A DNA stretch of 64,000 nt, from sequence record PV730299.1. The stretch is one strand, 5' to 3'. Position 1 is the stretch's first letter. Each line of letters starts with the position of its first letter. This stretch comes from a phage. Below, piece after piece: positions 6,359 to 16,323 of the stretch. Made by a program: the position numbers and the translations under genes. Below the pieces are notes generated by a model, which worked only from the letters and a program-made list of their open reading frames with translations, ran no database searches and was not told where the DNA came from.

Positions 6359-7153
6359 TTAACTGAAACTCTTGTATGCTGCTGCGAGCTTCTTGTCGTA
6401 CTGGTTCTTGGCATACGCCGGACCATTATAGCGCCGTGCAAATTCAGACCAGTTCTTGTCCTTCAGAGCCTGCCAGAGCTTGGCGTCAGCCTTGATGAAC
6501 TTCACGAATGCCATCAAATGAGCACGTTCTCCTGTCAGGAAGTCGTTGAACATCTCCTTGGCGTTGGCATATCCACAGACCTGGCAGTTGAATCCCATGA
6601 TCTGGAAGAGACCGTAAGAGGCGCTCTCGTACGCACAATCCTCATCGATGTTGATGGCCGCATGAAGTCGATCCAACTCCGCGTCGCCTCCCGTGTACCC
6701 GCCTGCAGAAGGGTTGACCAACGTCGGGTACATATGTCCCATGGCATTCGCCCGAGCCTGTCCGAACTTCGCCATCAACTTCTTATACATGATGTGGCGC
6801 TCAAATAATGTCTTGATCTTACCTGACTTGGTGAAGCCCGTGCCGCGCGACTCAACCTGATTCACCGCCTTGACAGAGGCAAGGTCAACACCCAGATCGT
6901 TAGCAGCATCAATCAGGTCTGACTCAGTTAGATGATCCTGATGGGCGTCTCCAGCGTTGCGAATAGCATAGGAGGTCTTTGGACCCACGATACCATCAAT
7001 GACAAGCCCCGCACCCGCCTGAACAGTCTTGACGGCGTTCTCTGTTGCCTTGCCAAAGATACCATCAGCGACGAGGGTGAAGCCGATTTTGTTGAGGCTA
7101 TCCTGGAGTGCCTTCACTTCAGTGCCACGGTTGCCAAGTTTTAGAATGGCCAT
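6359..7153 (-). CDS. endolysin: two peptidoglycan-binding repeats plus a C-terminal muramidase-like domain
   Basis: N-terminal repeats GTEVKALQDSLNKIGF... and GIVGPKTSYAIRN typical of PG_binding_1; C-terminal domain resembles phage N-acetylmuramidases; start taken at the internal ATG (MAILK) with GGAGGT SD, the track start at 7171 lies inside the leader hairpin. Confidence 0.8.
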   Translation of the reverse strand: MAILKLGNRGTEVKALQDSLNKIGFTLVADGIFGKATENAVKTVQAGAGLVIDGIVGPKTSYAIRNAGDAHQDHLTESDLIDAANDLGVDLASVKAVNQVESRGTGFTKSGKIKTLFERHIMYKKLMAKFGQARANAMGHMYPTLVNPSAGGYTGGDAELDRLHAAINIDEDCAYESASYGLFQIMGFNCQVCGYANAKEMFNDFLTGERAHLMAFVKFIKADAKLWQALKDKNWSEFARRYNGPAYAKNQYDKKLAAAYKSFS

Positions 7154-7159
7154 AAGAAA

Positions 7160-7191
7160 ATACCTCCACAATGAATGTAGAGGTATTTAAA
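7160..7191 (-). promoter_or_regulatory. late-promoter-like TTTAAATA motif plus leader hairpin that includes the SD of the endolysin gene
   Basis: Minus-strand CTTTAAATACCTCTACATTCATTGTGGAGGTATTTTCTT-ATG; same architecture upstream of the gene starting at 49770. Confidence 0.45.
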
Positions 7192-9974: not shown

Positions 9975-10544
9975 CTAGACAGGCTTAACACCGAGGAACT
10001 TGGCAATGTCAGCAGCCAGGTTTTTACCCTTGCTGATGTCGTGTTCTTTACCGCCGACAGTAACGATCACATACGGGTCATCTTCACCACCGAAGTTCAC
10101 GGTGATCGCCTTGCCGATGCCAGGGATGCCAGAGTATTCGAACTCAGTGCGACCACTCTTGCGAGACTTGCCAGCACCCAGTGCTTTACCGATCATCTTG
10201 TCCATGTTCGCCAGTTCCTGAGCATAGGATTCGGTCACTTGGCCTTTGTTGGCAGACTTGCCAAAGAAGAATTCGAAGCCGTCATGGACAGCAACGACTT
10301 CCTGACCTTGGGAGATACCGTGAGTCTGGTCTGGGGTCAGCTTCACCTTGATGGTGTTGCCGTTGGTTAACTCCAGGTTGTAGACATCCGCCTGATTGTC
10401 AGGGGTGATCTGGGTCACGGTAGCGCCGGAACACCACTGGGTGCCGTCAGCTTGCTTGGTGATGGATACGGTCTTACCTTGGACACCAGCGTGGGTCTGA
10501 GGTTTAGCGGCTTGTTCTTTAAAATATTCGATAAAAGGTTTCAT
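9975..10544 (-). CDS. hypothetical protein, probably late-expressed
   Basis: 189 aa; SD GAGGAGAGA; TATAAATA about 25 nt upstream of ATG. Confidence 0.55.
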   Translation of the reverse strand: MKPFIEYFKEQAAKPQTHAGVQGKTVSITKQADGTQWCSGATVTQITPDNQADVYNLELTNGNTIKVKLTPDQTHGISQGQEVVAVHDGFEFFFGKSANKGQVTESYAQELANMDKMIGKALGAGKSRKSGRTEFEYSGIPGIGKAITVNFGGEDDPYVIVTVGGKEHDISKGKNLAADIAKFLGVKPV

Positions 10545-10569: not shown

Positions 10570-10577
10570 TATTTATA
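10570..10577 (-). promoter_or_regulatory. T4-type late promoter core TATAAATA
   Basis: Exact TATAAATA on the minus strand immediately after the terminator hairpin of the upstream gene. Confidence 0.45.
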
Positions 10578-10601: not shown

Positions 10602-13562
10602 TCAGATCTTAATCTGCATGTTGCCACCCAGGGACTGCTCGTACTCGCTGTATGCGCCTTCCCCGTAGTCTCGTGCCCACTGGTCAGACTGCTGGGCACT
10701 ATCCAGAGTCATCAGGTTTGGTTCAGTCGGGTTGTAACCCTTGGACTTCGCATCCCGGTACAGAGTCTGCAGGTACTGGTTGGCGCGGTCAATCTGAGCT
10801 TTGAACTCGCGATATGCCCCTTCAGTTGTGTTGCGGCGGAAGGTGATATCCCAGTCCACGTTCAGAGTCTGACCATCACGGCTTGCATAGATCTGCCAAT
10901 CCAGGTCGCGACCTTTTGGTGCGTTGTCGCGGATGGAGTCGGCGTATGCCGCAAGGTCGTCCTTCGGATTGTGCGACGTGCTTTTCAGAAGTAGTGCATG
11001 ACCCATACCACCGTTTGACTGAAGAGACCATTTTCCTGTTTCTCTTCCCAGGCGTTCTATGTTGTTGAGTTGGTTTATCGACAATTCAGAAGAGTCAAAT
11101 AATACCACATCACGTTTTTTGGGGGTTCTCACATAAGGGGTGAGATCAATGTCGATCATCCGGTTTATAAATTCTACCACTTCAGCTTGTTTCTTTGGCA
11201 ATGTGGTATTGATATCCGGCGTGTTTGCTACTTTCTCCAGGCGTTTGTTTTCTGCGCTTATCATGGATAGCATAATTTGTGTAACTTTGCCGTCAGACAA
11301 GTTGTAATCATTCCAAATCACTTCACCTTTATCCGTGATGGTTATATCGTTCAAGAACACCTGGTTTGGGTTGTATGACTGACTTTTCAACTGTTGGAGG
11401 TTTCTGGAAAGATATTCCATTTTTGATGAAATCTCATCAATCACACTCTGGACCATATCTTTGTTTAAAGGAAGTTCATATGTCTTTGGATTGTTCAGGG
11501 TACGCCCTTTCTGAGAGACAATTGGGGTGAATGCAACTTTACCTTTGTCGTAGTAATAGGTCACGTTGGTTATCATAGAAGCACCGGCGTATTTTCCCGT
11601 TTCGGGGAAATTGACATCCCACCGAATGGACATACCGTTGACAGTCTCACCAAACACCATGGCGTTGCGTGGCATCTTCAGGGTTCCAGAGTTGACCAGA
11701 TCATCGCCTTGGGCATTCAGGTCGATAGAACCATAGATGGCCCCGGTAATACGATCTTTCAGCATCAGGGTCTTGTCGCCCTTCTCTGGGATGATTTCCA
11801 GCGGGTGCTTGCCACGCGGAGGCTCTTTGATGAGTTCCAGCAGAGCAGTGTTCCCAGGCTTCACACGATTCAGGACAGCGTCTGACACTGTCAGAGTCCA
11901 GTTTGCGGTTTCTACATAACCCCAGCCCCGAGAACGGCGAATGGCTTTGATAGGGTATGGAGCGCTTGTTGGCACTGCGCTAATTTCCCATTTCCCAGTG
12001 TACTGGGTCTTGGCAACCTCAAAGATGGACGCAATTACCGCATTGGCGACGTCACGGGCGCTGCCTTTGGCCACGTTCTCCTCTTCAGCAATTTCGCTGA
12101 AAACTGAGTATTGAATGAAACCAGCGAGGACGTTTGTGAAGTTGACAACGATAACCAACCCGCCTGCCGTCGTGTAACGACCAGCGCCCACACGACGGAT
12201 GTTCTCACCAGGAAGAATAGAAGTGTCCAGCCCAACGTTGGTATCAATGATACCCAGAACACGAGCGATGAAACCGCTGTCACGTAATTGATCAACACTG
12301 GTTGCACCCTCGGTCGAATCCGATGCGGATTTAGACACTTTGTTCAACTTGATAGAGACAAGGGTTTCCCCGTTGACACCGATGATATCCCATTCAGTAC
12401 CCTGCTCGTTCGAGATGCGGGCAATCTTGCGCTTTGAATTGATGGCACCTTCGTAACGCCCGTTTTTGACCACAACAGAGGCAGTGGCAGCATCAGTCGC
12501 ACTTGCTGCATTTGAAAAGTCTGGGTCGGAAATACTGATGTCGACGTCACCGTTTTGAGAACGCATGCGAACACCGTTTTTGAATCGTTCCACGTTTACT
12601 TCTCGAGCACCAAGTCGTTTGGCATCAATAACAGCAGTTCCAGAACCGATAATGTTGGCTGGGTTATTTCTGTCTGAACTGTTTTGAGAACCTTTCCAAA
12701 ATTTTGTGGACGCCGTGGTGAAATCATTCAGGATACTGATAGGGACTTGCGGTAATTTCAACTGACGAGCAATGAAATCAGCACTTTGCCCACGCACAGG
12801 TTTCTCATTCATGTATGCGCCAACATACACACCCGGCTCATTGTAGTGGGGAGCGATATTTGCCGTGTTCATGCGGCCTCTCTCCTTACCAGCCCATAAC
12901 AACATGGGCTGATCCCCGTTTGAAGTCAATTTCCATCCGTTGGAATTATCAGCAGAAGATGACACACCCACATCCGGAGTATTGTTCTGAACCGGAACGT
13001 CACCGACCTTGTCTGGATCATCCCAGGTGATACCCTGCATCTTCGGACCGTCGAATACCTGAGCCGGATCTTTACCCTTGCGGACCAGCCACACATAACC
13101 ACGGTCAGGGACAGGCGCGTAGGTCAGGTCCATGACATTCAGTTTCTGTTTCAGGCCGGACTGGCGGATGATCTTAGGAATCAGGGTCATACCGCGATCC
13201 AGCGCTTTCTTAGAGAAGTTGACAGCAAAGCCATCGATGGTCTTGCCCAGAGGAGTCGCCATGAATTGTTTGGTCGCTTCGATCATGGAAGCGATAACGC
13301 GCATTGGGTTCTTGAAGCGAGCGATGGCGTCAGGATAGACGGAGCCGCGCTTCTGGCCGATGAAAACCTGACGAACGCTCTTGCCCAGCCCCTGAGGGGT
13401 ATAGAACTGAATACGGTATTCCTTTTCATCTTCGTCGATGAAGGTGAAGAACACATCGCCTGCGTTCTTCTTACCCATGGTCAGCTCATACGGAGCGGAG
13501 TTGAACGCTTCGTCCAACTGATCTCTTTCCTGCATGAACTGGAGGAAACTTAGCTTTGACAT
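10602..13562 (-). CDS. large hypothetical protein (986 aa), possibly virion-associated
   Basis: Uninterrupted 986-aa ORF with strong SD AGGAGATATAAA-ATG; CTAATTAGAA motif upstream as for gp19 and portal; no family recognised by eye. Confidence 0.7.
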   Translation of the reverse strand: MSKLSFLQFMQERDQLDEAFNSAPYELTMGKKNAGDVFFTFIDEDEKEYRIQFYTPQGLGKSVRQVFIGQKRGSVYPDAIARFKNPMRVIASMIEATKQFMATPLGKTIDGFAVNFSKKALDRGMTLIPKIIRQSGLKQKLNVMDLTYAPVPDRGYVWLVRKGKDPAQVFDGPKMQGITWDDPDKVGDVPVQNNTPDVGVSSSADNSNGWKLTSNGDQPMLLWAGKERGRMNTANIAPHYNEPGVYVGAYMNEKPVRGQSADFIARQLKLPQVPISILNDFTTASTKFWKGSQNSSDRNNPANIIGSGTAVIDAKRLGAREVNVERFKNGVRMRSQNGDVDISISDPDFSNAASATDAATASVVVKNGRYEGAINSKRKIARISNEQGTEWDIIGVNGETLVSIKLNKVSKSASDSTEGATSVDQLRDSGFIARVLGIIDTNVGLDTSILPGENIRRVGAGRYTTAGGLVIVVNFTNVLAGFIQYSVFSEIAEEENVAKGSARDVANAVIASIFEVAKTQYTGKWEISAVPTSAPYPIKAIRRSRGWGYVETANWTLTVSDAVLNRVKPGNTALLELIKEPPRGKHPLEIIPEKGDKTLMLKDRITGAIYGSIDLNAQGDDLVNSGTLKMPRNAMVFGETVNGMSIRWDVNFPETGKYAGASMITNVTYYYDKGKVAFTPIVSQKGRTLNNPKTYELPLNKDMVQSVIDEISSKMEYLSRNLQQLKSQSYNPNQVFLNDITITDKGEVIWNDYNLSDGKVTQIMLSMISAENKRLEKVANTPDINTTLPKKQAEVVEFINRMIDIDLTPYVRTPKKRDVVLFDSSELSINQLNNIERLGRETGKWSLQSNGGMGHALLLKSTSHNPKDDLAAYADSIRDNAPKGRDLDWQIYASRDGQTLNVDWDITFRRNTTEGAYREFKAQIDRANQYLQTLYRDAKSKGYNPTEPNLMTLDSAQQSDQWARDYGEGAYSEYEQSLGGNMQIKI

Positions 13563-14319: not shown

Positions 14320-14348
14320 AGTATAGGGAAGGATATTGAAGAAGTAAA
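14320..14348 (-). promoter_or_regulatory. sigma70-like early promoter (TTTACT-N17-TATACT) with conserved leader
   Basis: Minus-strand TTTACTTCTTCAATATCCTTCCCTATACTTCATTCCATAAGCAGTAC; the run TATACTTCATTCCATAAGCAGTAC is identical at 51160-51188. Confidence 0.55.
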
Positions 14349-14378
14349 GGGGCGAAAGCCCCTTTTATTGAATTATTT

Positions 14379-15017
14379 TTACGGCGTCGGATTCGCAACC
14401 GGAATGTGGGATCGAATACCTGCGATGATATCCTTCAGCTGTGGTTTCCAGCCATTTACCAAACGGGGGAGAGCGATAGCGCCAGGCTGGACCAAAATGA
14501 TGTCGCTGCCTGTGATATTGTGCTGAGGGAACTGGGCAAGGTACTGCTCCATGGTGACACCCTCATCAATCAGAACCGCACCGACGTCAGACGATGCGTA
14601 GGTTGCACCCAGACCGTCAACGCCCCACGCCAAAATACCCCAGTCAGGGATGTTGGCTTCAGATGTGATGGTGAATCCAAACACGGTGTTCAGTGAGGTA
14701 AAGGAATAGACATCGTGGGTGAGGTCATACACCAGATACCCCTTGGCCAGCATATCGGCAAAGATCGCGTCCGTATCGCCTGCAGCCGGAGTCGGTACAG
14801 TAAACAACAACTCGCCCTCAGGAGGGGCAGGATACGTACCGAGGGCATAGAGGCACCATGCGTCAATACACTTCTTGATAAATGCCTCCGGTGCGACATA
14901 ATCAGCAAGGCGAACCGTGCCTGAGTACTCGGATACGATGATGCCTTCCTTCGCACCCTGTAGAGCAATGAAGACCAAGATATGTTCATATCCGGCCTGA
15001 GATGGAGTGATGTTCAT
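14379..15017 (-). CDS. hypothetical protein
   Basis: 212 aa from MNITPSQ with SD GAGGA; the track start at 15113 overlaps the upstream gene. Confidence 0.55.
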   Translation of the reverse strand: MNITPSQAGYEHILVFIALQGAKEGIIVSEYSGTVRLADYVAPEAFIKKCIDAWCLYALGTYPAPPEGELLFTVPTPAAGDTDAIFADMLAKGYLVYDLTHDVYSFTSLNTVFGFTITSEANIPDWGILAWGVDGLGATYASSDVGAVLIDEGVTMEQYLAQFPQHNITGSDIILVQPGAIALPRLVNGWKPQLKDIIAGIRSHIPVANPTP

Positions 15018-15631
15018 TATCTTGTCCTCTTCAGTTTCTCTATCGTGTGCTTGTTCATGGCGATCACCCGAGGATCTACCTCGGAGATGGTCCGGCCTTT
15101 GAAGGACACACATTTCTGAAGATATTTAGCTTTCTTCACGACGTCAGCGGCATAAGCGTTCGATGCAGGATTACGGGCAAAGCCAGCATTGTAAGAGGAG
15201 AGGGATTTGCGGATATTCTGATTGTGATAGGTCAGCCAGAACTGCATCTCATCGAGGGCGGCTTGCGCGGCATATTCTTGGTCGGTCAGCAACTTTATGG
15301 CGACATTGGCATAGCACTTGCGATTCTTACAACCTTCGCGATCACCAACTGTCTTCACCTTGTTCTGAAAGGCTCCCATGTTGGCCGCCTTGAGGCCGTA
15401 TCGCATTGACACTACATCTTCACCAGCGCGGCTCTCTCGCCAAGATATGGCGGCCAGAGTGTAGCCAAGATCTTGTGTCTTGCCTACGTGATAGGCGGTT
15501 GCCATCGTATTAAGTTGTTGCTCGGAGAAATTATAATCACATTGGGTGGTACTTTGGGAAGCGTGCACATTCCCGCTGGCAATGGTAAAGGTCACGGACA
15601 AGGCCATGGCCTTCAACGTTGTCATCGTCAT
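15017..15631 (-). CDS. secreted lytic transglycosylase-like protein (SLT domain)
   Basis: N-terminal signal peptide MTMTTLKAMALSVTFTIASGNVHA; catalytic-region motifs ISWRESRAG and YNAG as in SLT/IagB-family transglycosylases. Confidence 0.6.
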   Translation of the reverse strand: MTMTTLKAMALSVTFTIASGNVHASQSTTQCDYNFSEQQLNTMATAYHVGKTQDLGYTLAAISWRESRAGEDVVSMRYGLKAANMGAFQNKVKTVGDREGCKNRKCYANVAIKLLTDQEYAAQAALDEMQFWLTYHNQNIRKSLSSYNAGFARNPASNAYAADVVKKAKYLQKCVSFKGRTISEVDPRVIAMNKHTIEKLKRTR

Positions 15632-15728
15632 GATGGCGTTCCTTATGTTTTGTCGACTTGCAGCTCGCTTGAGCCTCCTGACAGGGGTTAAAAGATAAAG
15701 GGCACGTGGTATTTAGTGCCCTTCAGCC

Positions 15729-16013
15729 TCATTCGTAGATGAGGTGGTAGGATTCCTCGATGCACTCCAGCCAGCCATAGACGAACTGTAGAGGGTCATC
15801 CCATGCCGTCTTGGTCGCGACGGTAAAGTTGCCGTCCAGGATCTGCATATCTTGGTACTTGTTGAAAGCGAGTACAGCATCAACCACAATCAGGCCGCCC
15901 TGCTCAAGATAACGATTCAGAGTGACGGTCACTTGGTAATGAGGATTCCTGCGATTCCATATCTCCACAGCAATGTCACAGGATTCCTGAATTTCATCTT
16001 TGTTTTCTGACAT
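15729..16013 (-). CDS. hypothetical protein
   Basis: 94-aa ORF in the operon-like run, terminator-like hairpin downstream. Confidence 0.5.
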   Translation of the reverse strand: MSENKDEIQESCDIAVEIWNRRNPHYQVTVTLNRYLEQGGLIVVDAVLAFNKYQDMQILDGNFTVATKTAWDDPLQFVYGWLECIEESYHLIYE

Positions 16014-16323
16014 ACGTTTGTCTCAGATGTTCAGTAAAGGATTTACCCAGCTTGCGGAATAGTTTAATACGACCAATGACTTTGACGTAAACATCTCCGT
16101 GGCAGGGGCGCGGCTTACACCAGCACCCCAATACCTTCCCGTCAAGATCAAGGAGTTCATCCTCAGTGATATCCCCTTCAATCAGGCGCACATACAGGTC
16201 GTCCTCAAACAGTTCGATACAGACGCCTCGTCCATGGTCTTTGACCTCAAACGGGTTCCCCCATTTACCAGGCCGACCAATGTAGACGTCATATGGCTCC
16301 TTCTTGAAGTGGACGACTTTCAT
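15994..16323 (-). CDS. DUF4326-like protein
   Basis: 109 aa with GRPGKWGNPF and LGCWCKPRPCHGDV motifs characteristic of DUF4326. Confidence 0.6.
   Translation of the reverse strand: MKVVHFKKEPYDVYIGRPGKWGNPFEVKDHGRGVCIELFEDDLYVRLIEGDITEDELLDLDGKVLGCWCKPRPCHGDVYVKVIGRIKLFRKLGKSFTEHLRQTYVRKQR

What the first reader, a model, noticed from the sequence alone, without database searches (positions are those of the whole stretch)
15017..15631. Secreted SLT-domain lytic transglycosylase encoded among early genes
A signal-peptide-bearing protein with SLT motifs (ES catalytic region, YNAG) sits in an early-gene cluster rather than with lysis or tail genes. A periplasm-targeted transglycosylase separate from the endolysin is unusual for this phage type and could act in envelope remodelling or exclusion.
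Basis: partly seen in the sequence, partly recalled or inferred. Interest (0 to 1): 0.45.

Follow-up and report, generated by a model that had tools for sequence, protein, structure and literature searches.

The report
Phage T4 Vs.1-type exported transglycosylase
The gene is real and encodes an exported cell-wall-cutting enzyme, but it is the ordinary counterpart of phage T4's long-known vs.1 gene, which is found in over two thousand phage genomes and whose role in infection is still untested.

Summary

It is not unusual. It is the homologue of phage T4 Vs.1 (PHROG 600; BLASTP E 1e-18). Similarity of Vs.1 to SLT was published in 2006. Relatives occur in 2128 phage records: Ackermannviridae, T4-like phages and Felix O1-like phages. 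Some GenBank records already call it a lytic transglycosylase. Others wrongly call it RegB or cut off its signal peptide.

The "early cluster" label is only partly right. T4 vs.1 is early RNA and middle protein. Here, however, the gene overlaps a downstream gene whose LIMEstone1 orthologue was found in virions, and it lies beside other virion-protein genes. The real endolysin lies 8 kb away at 6359..7171.

The role in infection remains untested. The most likely role is accessory loosening of peptidoglycan from the periplasm.

One unexplained extra: the 5' leader and the signal-peptide codons are far more conserved at the DNA level than the rest of the gene.

The parts
15017..15631 (-). CDS of the Vs.1-family exported SLT-fold lytic transglycosylase (204 aa, stop codon included)
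15560..15631 (-). Codons 1-24: predicted Sec signal peptide, with proposed cleavage after V-H-A24
   Evidence: The n/h/c regions are read from the sequence. pLDDT is below 50 for residues 1-27. 71 of 76 family members have an N-terminal hydrophobic segment. No dedicated signal-peptide predictor was available.
15434..15436 (-). Codon of Glu66, the proposed catalytic general acid/base (E-S motif)
   Evidence: Invariant in 76 of 76 members; S67 is S or T in all 76. It aligns with catalytic E64 of E. coli MltE (weak score) and with the E-S of EtgA.
15182..15196 (-). Codons 146-150, S-Y-N-A-G (SLT motif III)
   Evidence: Y147 and G150 are invariant, S146 is in 69 of 76 and N148 in 63 of 76. The stretch aligns with AYNAG of EtgA.
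15020..15109 (-). Codons 175-204: basic C-terminal tail (pI 11), modelled with two short helices, absent from T4 Vs.1
   Evidence: Alignment A1. pLDDT is about 84-92 with helices at 187-203. pI. T4 Vs.1 ends shortly after the equivalent of residue 172.
15639..15644 (-). Shine-Dalgarno AAGGAA, 8 nt upstream of the ATG
   Evidence: Read from the sequence; invariant in 10 related loci.
15696..15725 (-). Terminator-like RNA hairpin (10 bp stem, 10-nt loop) followed by a T-rich run, just after the upstream gene's stop codon
   Evidence: The one-sided changes (7 across 3 of the 10 stem pairs) swap A-U and G-U, which keeps pairing only on the mRNA strand.
15551..15700 (-). Stretch that is hyper-conserved at the nucleotide level: the 5' leader plus the signal-peptide codons. 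Its function is unexplained.
   Evidence: 25-30 of 30 positions are invariant per bin here, against 11-26 (mostly below 23) in the rest of the CDS. The synonymous-site deficit has Fisher p from 3e-8 to 3e-4. There is no excess folding and no Rfam match.
14379..15017 (-). Downstream DUF7270 gene (212 aa). Its ATG overlaps the SLT stop codon (TAATG).
   Evidence: Pfam DUF7270 E 2e-111. The pair is adjacent in all Ackermannviridae loci tested. LIMEstone1 ORF085 is 97% identical and was found in virions by mass spectrometry.
14346..14365 (-). Hairpin AAAGGGGC-TTTC-GCCCCTTT after the DUF7270 stop codon, closing the two-gene unit
   Evidence: Annotated as a terminator in LIMEstone1.

Best explanation
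The gene encodes a small soluble lytic transglycosylase of the SLT / GH23 fold, and it is the Ackermannviridae homologue of phage T4 Vs.1.

Inferred mechanism:
- The Sec system exports the precursor, and signal peptidase I cuts it after Ala24.
- The roughly 20 kDa basic mature protein (pI 9.6) folds in the periplasm. A Cys31-Cys174 disulfide probably stabilises it, and possibly a second one between Cys101 and Cys106.
- Glu66 acts as the single acid/base. It cleaves MurNAc-GlcNAc bonds of host peptidoglycan and yields 1,6-anhydro-MurNAc ends.

It is not the phage's main endolysin, and no evidence places it in the virion. The most likely role is as an accessory factor that makes limited cuts in the sacculus from the periplasmic side before holin-triggered lysis. 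That would loosen the wall and modestly improve phage fitness.

Shown here: the homology, the fold, the conserved catalytic motifs, and a signal-like N-terminus across the family. Inferred: export, disulfides, enzymatic activity, timing and biological role.
For: - Family: PHROG 600 at full length, E 1.2e-59. BLASTP to T4 Vs.1 gives 30% identity and E 1e-18 over residues 17-172.
- SLT domain: T4 Vs.1 passes the Pfam SLT gathering score (25.1 bits). 36 of 76 family members match SLT at E<0.01.
- Catalytic residues: E66, G70, Y147, G150 and Y160 are invariant; S67 is S or T in all 76 members. E66 aligns with MltE E64 and with the EtgA E-S motif.
- Export: 71 of 76 members have an N-terminal hydrophobic segment. 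C31 and C174 co-occur in 45 members and are jointly absent in 26 of 76.
- Separate endolysin at 6359..7171.
- T4 vs.1 is early RNA and middle protein (PMC9697503 supplements). Its knock-down was scored 'Semi-Fit' (PMC11879866 supplements).
- In a Felix O1-like phage and in Vibrio phage K352 the homologue also sits among early or nucleotide-metabolism genes.
Against: - This protein's own Pfam SLT score is 0.9 bit below the gathering threshold. NCBIfam gives no hit. Sequence matches to solved lytic transglycosylases are not significant (E 0.11 for EtgA; hhalign E 0.38 for MltE).
- No member of the family has a measured activity or a demonstrated location in any paper found.
- Lytic transglycosylase and hydrolytic lysozyme chemistry cannot be told apart from sequence.
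- Timing in this phage is unknown. No sigma-70-like or T4-type late promoter was found upstream. The overlapping downstream gene encodes a protein found in LIMEstone1 virions, which points to late rather than early expression.
- From my own knowledge, T4 e mutants fail to lyse even though vs.1 is intact, so any wall damage by Vs.1 must be limited. That fits an accessory role but does not demonstrate one.
Confidence: 0.6

Rival explanations
1. It is a signal-peptide endolysin. It is exported early, held inactive at the energised membrane, and activated when the holin depolarises the membrane, so that it contributes directly to lysis alongside the cytoplasmic endolysin.
For: Campylobacter Fletchervirus phages, which are T4-related, use a 188-aa protein with a signal peptide and an SLT domain as their endolysin. 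That protein was shown in E. coli to be Sec-dependent and holin-activated (PMC7692668). Its NCTC12673 orthologue has the same architecture.
Against: The Fletchervirus enzyme is not detectably in the Vs.1 family: hmmsearch finds nothing and hhalign gives probability 0.7%. This phage has a canonical modular endolysin. From my own knowledge, T4 e mutants do not lyse although vs.1 is intact.
Confidence: 0.2
2. It is an envelope-defence or exclusion factor. By altering peptidoglycan in the periplasm, it blocks superinfecting phages or counters a host defence.
For: It is exported, its T4 homologue is made before replication, and other T4 periplasmic early proteins act in exclusion (my own knowledge). 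The CRISPRi-ART authors list vs.1 among unknown fitness genes that might hide anti-defence functions.
Against: There is no direct evidence. A wall-cutting enzyme would be expected to help incoming phages rather than hinder them. The invariant catalytic residues point to bulk peptidoglycan as the substrate. The family is conserved across hosts that differ greatly in their defence repertoires.
Confidence: 0.1
3. It is a catalytically inactive peptidoglycan-binding protein, or a virion-associated wall hydrolase used at entry.
For: The Pfam score is below threshold. The overlapping downstream gene product is a virion protein in LIMEstone1.
Against: The catalytic Glu and all SLT motifs are invariant across the family. 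The LIMEstone1 orthologue ORF086 is not in the virion mass-spectrometry table, whereas ORF085 is. A cleavable export signal does not fit packaging into virions. The tail already carries its own hydrolase, annotated as the gp5 homologue.
Confidence: 0.05
4. It is a RegB-type endoribonuclease, as many GenBank records for its orthologues say.
For: Product names such as 'putative RegB protein' or 'RegB site-specific RNA endonuclease' appear in LIMEstone1, Maynard, Coodle, SS3, SS9 and other records.
Against: BLASTP to T4 RegB finds nothing (E 0.26). T4 RegB matches Pfam REGB_T4 at 8e-69, and this protein does not match that family. The fold is lysozyme-like. The label probably arose because vs.1 and regB are neighbours in T4.
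Confidence: 0.01

Closest known systems
Phage T4 Vs.1 (gene vs.1, NP_049725; PHROG 600)
   Same: It is homologous over nearly its full length (30% identity, E 1e-18). It has the same architecture of a signal-like N-terminus followed by a single SLT-like domain of about 160 aa, the same invariant E-S, G-x-x-Q, S-Y-N-x-G and Y motifs, and a basic mature protein. It is encoded apart from the endolysin. Its function is likewise unknown.
   Different: T4 Vs.1 lacks the C31/C174 and C101/C106 cysteines and the 30-residue basic C-terminal tail. Its neighbours are vs and regB, not DUF7270.
Bacterial family-1 lytic transglycosylases (SLT domain PF01464 / GH23): Slt70, MltE, MltC, MltD, MltF
   Different: Sequence similarity is marginal. 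It has no lipobox, no superhelical or LysM accessory domains, and it is phage-encoded. Whether it forms anhydro-MurNAc products has not been tested.
Specialised secretion-system lytic transglycosylases (EtgA, IagB, IpgF, VirB1)
   Different: No secretion-system genes lie nearby. tblastn finds no homologue in 72,556 plasmids. The EtgA-type Asp in the beta-hairpin is not evident in this protein. Membership is not supported.
Signal-peptide endolysin of Campylobacter Fletchervirus phages (F352 Lys; NCTC12673 orthologue)
   Same: It has a signal peptide plus an SLT domain, is 188 aa long, comes from a T4-related myovirus, and is encoded outside a lysis cassette.
   Different: It is not detectably related beyond the SLT fold. 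It is that phage's only endolysin, whereas this phage has a separate muramidase endolysin.

Membership tests
T4 Vs.1 family (PHROG 600) | Full-length match to the family profile | tested here: met
   phrog_600 E 1.2e-59, residues 7-179 against profile positions 4-176 of 178. T4 vs.1 is itself assigned to phrog_600 (PMC11879866 supplement).
T4 Vs.1 family (PHROG 600) | Direct pairwise similarity to T4 Vs.1 | tested here: met
   BLASTP 30% identity, E 1e-18, query residues 17-172.
T4 Vs.1 family (PHROG 600) | N-terminal export signal before the catalytic domain | tested here: met
   Hydrophobic N-terminal segment in 71 of 76 members, including this protein and T4 Vs.1. This rests on a heuristic, not a dedicated predictor.
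SLT domain / GH23 family-1 lytic transglycosylase (Pfam PF01464) | Score at or above the Pfam gathering threshold (21.3 bits) | tested here: not met
   20.4 bits, E 3.9e-4. T4 Vs.1 scores 25.1 bits, and 36 of 76 relatives match at E<0.01, the best at 1.5e-11.
SLT domain / GH23 family-1 lytic transglycosylase (Pfam PF01464) | Goose-lysozyme-like alpha-helical fold | tested here: met
   [not shown]
SLT domain / GH23 family-1 lytic transglycosylase (Pfam PF01464) | Catalytic Glu in an E-S motif, plus the G-x-x-Q, (A/S)-Y-N-x-G and Y motifs in order | tested here: met
   E66-S67, G86..Q89, S146-Y-N-A-G150 and Y160. E66, Y147, G150 and Y160 are invariant in 76 sequences. Alignments to EtgA and MltE place E66 on their catalytic Glu.
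SLT domain / GH23 family-1 lytic transglycosylase (Pfam PF01464) | Non-hydrolytic cleavage that yields 1,6-anhydro-MurNAc | not testable with these tools
   This needs enzyme assays and muropeptide analysis.
RegB endoribonuclease (Pfam PF10715) | Similarity to T4 RegB or to the REGB_T4 profile | tested here: not met
   BLASTP E 0.26. There is no REGB_T4 hit, while T4 RegB scores 8e-69.
IagB / EtgA-type specialised lytic transglycosylases | Significant sequence similarity and linkage to a secretion or conjugation apparatus | tested here: not met
   EtgA E 0.11. There is no tblastn match in the plasmid collection. The neighbouring genes are phage genes.
Signal-peptide (SP) endolysins | Exported muralytic enzyme that serves as the phage's endolysin | tested here: inconclusive
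   The architecture fits. However, a separate canonical endolysin exists at 6359..7171, and there is no detectable homology to the characterised Fletchervirus SP-endolysin. Function was not tested.

The most novel reading that the evidence does not exclude
The Vs.1 family could be a dedicated periplasmic wall-remodelling factor with a specific role that nobody has yet recognised, for example conditioning the sacculus for lysis in highly cross-linked cells, or interfering with envelope-linked defence. In Ackermannviridae its production could be controlled by the hyper-conserved 150-nt stretch at 15551-15700, which covers the 5' leader and the signal-peptide codons. That stretch would then be a new cis-regulatory element, such as a translational operator or an antisense target, rather than a recombination junction.
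Probability: 0.12. Interest if true: 0.55.

Novelty: already known. Interest (0 to 1): 0.22.

Why it matters
For annotation, it lets this gene be named correctly: an exported Vs.1-family SLT-fold transglycosylase, not RegB, and with its full signal peptide. That corrects an error repeated in many Ackermannviridae records.

Biologically, the family is very widespread, with 2128 phage records and 821 clusters at 50% identity. It has invariant catalytic residues, and its T4 member shows a modest fitness effect, yet no demonstrated function was found in the literature searched. Why large lytic myoviruses export a second wall-cutting enzyme remains open. This window, however, adds no new handle on that question beyond the conserved leader.

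Tried and rejected
- **RegB identity.** Rejected.
- **IagB/EtgA or plasmid-borne specialised transglycosylase.** There is no plasmid homologue, and the EtgA match is not significant.
- **Homology to the characterised Fletchervirus SP-endolysin.** I fetched the whole NCTC12673 genome and found its SLT gene, but it is not in this family.
- **T4-type late promoter.** TATAAATA occurs only twice in the window and neither copy is near the gene. The 'putative late promoter' annotated upstream of the LIMEstone1 orthologue reads TATGAATG there and TACGAATG here, which is unconvincing.
- **Sigma-70-like promoter upstream.** None was found on the coding strand.
- **RNA structure as the cause of leader conservation.** Rfam gives nothing. 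Folding z-scores are -1.8, +0.46 and +0.93. RNAalifold finds no compensatory pairs. The motif is unique in the window.
- **NCBIfam.** No hit.
- **Direct phmmer search against the PDB.** Only noise.
- **Locus search with alignment A1.** It failed for lack of a conserved stretch, and the search with P0026 found nothing.
- **Literature on a vs.1 function.** Searches found none. Miller et al. 2003 is not held in the library.

Full report
**What the window is.** The 3 kb around the finding is 97.8% identical to Escherichia phage A221 and about 95% identical to Shigella phage Ag3 (Ackermannviridae, Aglimvirinae). It matches 279 phage records in all.

- An ORF of 204 aa runs from 15631 to 15017 on the minus strand. 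An AAGGAA ribosome-binding site lies 8 nt upstream.
- The N-terminus has a lysine, a 12-13-residue hydrophobic core and V-H-A before Ser25, as expected for a signal-peptidase-I substrate. I had no dedicated signal-peptide predictor.
- Pfam SLT matches at E 3.9e-4 and 20.4 bits, just under the 21.3-bit gathering score. NCBIfam finds nothing.

**What family is it?**
- PHROG 600 ('unknown function') matches at full length with E 1.2e-59.
- Shigella phage Ag3 annotates its orthologue as 'Vs.1 conserved hypothetical protein'.
- I fetched T4 vs.1. BLASTP gives 30% identity and E 1e-18 over residues 17-172.
- T4 Vs.1 itself passes the Pfam SLT threshold with 25.1 bits.
- Many GenBank records call the orthologues 'RegB'. 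This is wrong: there is no similarity to T4 RegB. RegB matches its own Pfam family at 8e-69 and this protein does not. The label appears in the 2012 LIMEstone1 record (ORF086) and probably reflects the fact that vs.1 and regB are neighbours in T4.
- The A221 and Ag3 records annotate truncated versions of 162 and 129 aa that lack the signal peptide, although the full 204-aa frame is intact in both.

**Fold and catalytic residues.**
- An AlphaFold model built on 18 homologues has pLDDT 86.6. Only residues 1-27 are disordered.
- A profile search of 1.84 billion representative proteins finds 821 clusters at E<=1e-3, most of them 160-200 aa long.
- In an alignment of 76 diverse members plus T4 Vs.1, the residues E66, G70, Y147, G150 and Y160 are invariant, and S67 is Ser or Thr in all 76.
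- Profile alignments place E66 on the catalytic Glu of EtgA and on E64 of MltE, though both alignments score weakly.
The Glu is conserved.
- 71 of the 76 members have an N-terminal hydrophobic segment. Cys31 and Cys174 co-occur in 45 members and are jointly absent in 26, which suggests a disulfide and fits a periplasmic location.
- The mature protein is basic, with pI 9.6, as is T4 Vs.1.

**Is it unusual?** No.
- tblastn finds relatives in 2128 of 50,697 phage records. About 270 have 60% identity or more (Ackermannviridae). The rest are T4-like phages of many hosts, Felix O1-like phages and others.
- None is found on plasmids.
- Nolan et al. 2006 already reported that vs.1 is conserved in 6 of 6 T4-like genomes and resembles the SLT domain. 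They cite earlier PSI-BLAST evidence for T4 (PMC1524935).
- Some records already name it 'lytic transglycosylase' or 'transglycosylase SLT domain protein'.

**Context and timing.**
- The gene lies downstream of gp47, gp46, a small membrane protein, a DUF4326 (NrdA.1-like) protein and a 94-aa ORF.
- Its stop codon overlaps the ATG of a DUF7270 gene (TAATG). The pair is adjacent in every Ackermannviridae locus tested, including lineages where the SLT protein is only 55% identical.
- The pair is bracketed by terminator-like hairpins.
- In LIMEstone1 the DUF7270 orthologue (ORF085) was detected in virions by mass spectrometry, while the SLT orthologue was not. ORFs 078, 080, 081 and 082 just downstream are also virion proteins. 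One of them has a perfect TATAAATA late promoter in this window, at 10570-10577.
- The neighbourhood is therefore a mix of replication genes and late virion genes, not a pure early cluster.
- I found no convincing promoter for the SLT gene.
- By homology, T4 vs.1 is classed as early RNA and middle protein (PMC9697503 supplements). In a Felix O1-like phage the homologue sits beside rIIA/rIIB, and in Vibrio phage K352 it sits near nrdA.
- The phage's endolysin is a separate gene 8 kb away on the same strand (6359..7171; PG_binding_1 plus Muramidase PF11860).

**Function.** I found no experimental study of any family member.
- The closest data point is the CRISPRi-ART screen, which scored T4 vs.1 as 'Semi-Fit' (0.81, p 0.099) and listed it among genes of purely unknown function (PMC11879866 supplements).
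- The best-supported reading is an exported accessory lytic transglycosylase that makes limited cuts in the sacculus before lysis.
- A more specific rival is a signal-peptide endolysin of the kind demonstrated in Campylobacter Fletchervirus phages (PMC7692668). I located the orthologue of that enzyme in NCTC12673. It shares the architecture but is not detectably in this family.
- The DUF7270 partner gave only weak winged-helix-like structural matches and says nothing about wall biology.

**An unexplained extra.**
- Between this phage and Kuttervirus-like relatives, the intergenic leader is 89-96% identical, against 77-78% for the SLT coding sequence and 70-75% for DUF7270.
- The conservation peak spans 15551-15700, which is the leader plus the signal-peptide codons.
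- Synonymous differences are almost absent in codons 1-30 (0-2 among 22-26 conserved codons). They affect about half of the conserved codons in the rest of the gene (Fisher p from 3e-8 to 3e-4). These comparisons are phylogenetically related, not independent.
- Neither strand folds better than shuffled controls. There are no compensatory pairs and no Rfam match.
- A regulatory operator, an antisense target and a recombination junction all remain possible.

**Verdict.** The thing is already known as a predicted family, so interest is low to modest.

Noticed in passing
window 15551-15700 (minus strand): The 5' leader and the first 27 or so codons (the signal peptide) of the SLT gene are the most conserved DNA in the region. 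Synonymous changes are almost absent in codons 1-30, against about 52% of conserved codons elsewhere (p from 3e-8 to 3e-4). No excess RNA folding, no covariation and no Rfam hit explain it.
   Followed up: partly
window 15615-15650 (plus strand): A terminator-like hairpin of 11 pairs, three of them G-U and so stable only on the plus strand, is followed by a T-rich run. It lies antisense to the SLT start codon. It could mark an antisense RNA, but no plus-strand gene or promoter is nearby.
   Followed up: no
[not shown]
   Followed up: partly
L003 21018-21632, L001 7018-7632, L031 12408-13022: There are annotation errors in public records of the orthologues. A221 and Ag3 annotate N-terminally truncated CDSs of 162 and 129 aa that drop the signal peptide, although the full frame is intact. 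LIMEstone1 and many later records call the protein RegB.
   Followed up: yes
window 6359-7171 (minus strand): The phage's modular endolysin has an N-terminal PG_binding_1 domain and an N-acetylmuramidase domain (PF11860, E 6e-59). It is annotated only as 'putative peptidoglycan binding protein' in A221.
   Followed up: partly
window 10570-10577 (minus strand) and ORF 9975-10544: A perfect T4-type late promoter TATAAATA lies directly upstream of a 189-aa ORF that is 93% identical to LIMEstone1 ORF080, a virion protein confirmed by mass spectrometry. This shows that late structural genes are embedded in this replication-gene region.
   Followed up: partly
window 10602-13562 (minus strand): This 986-aa ORF varies greatly in length among relatives. 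In LIMEstone1 its ends correspond to two overlapping ORFs, 082 and 081, both virion proteins confirmed by mass spectrometry, and residues about 332-855 have no match in the LIMEstone1 stretch fetched. The Ag3 and A221 orthologues also differ in length. There is a weak PHROG hit to an internal head protein.
   Followed up: partly
window 15994-16323 (minus strand): A DUF4326 protein (T4 NrdA.1-like, E 3e-23) lies two genes upstream. In the divergent Ackermannviridae loci L028-L030 it sits immediately upstream of the SLT gene, so local gene order differs between lineages.
   Followed up: no
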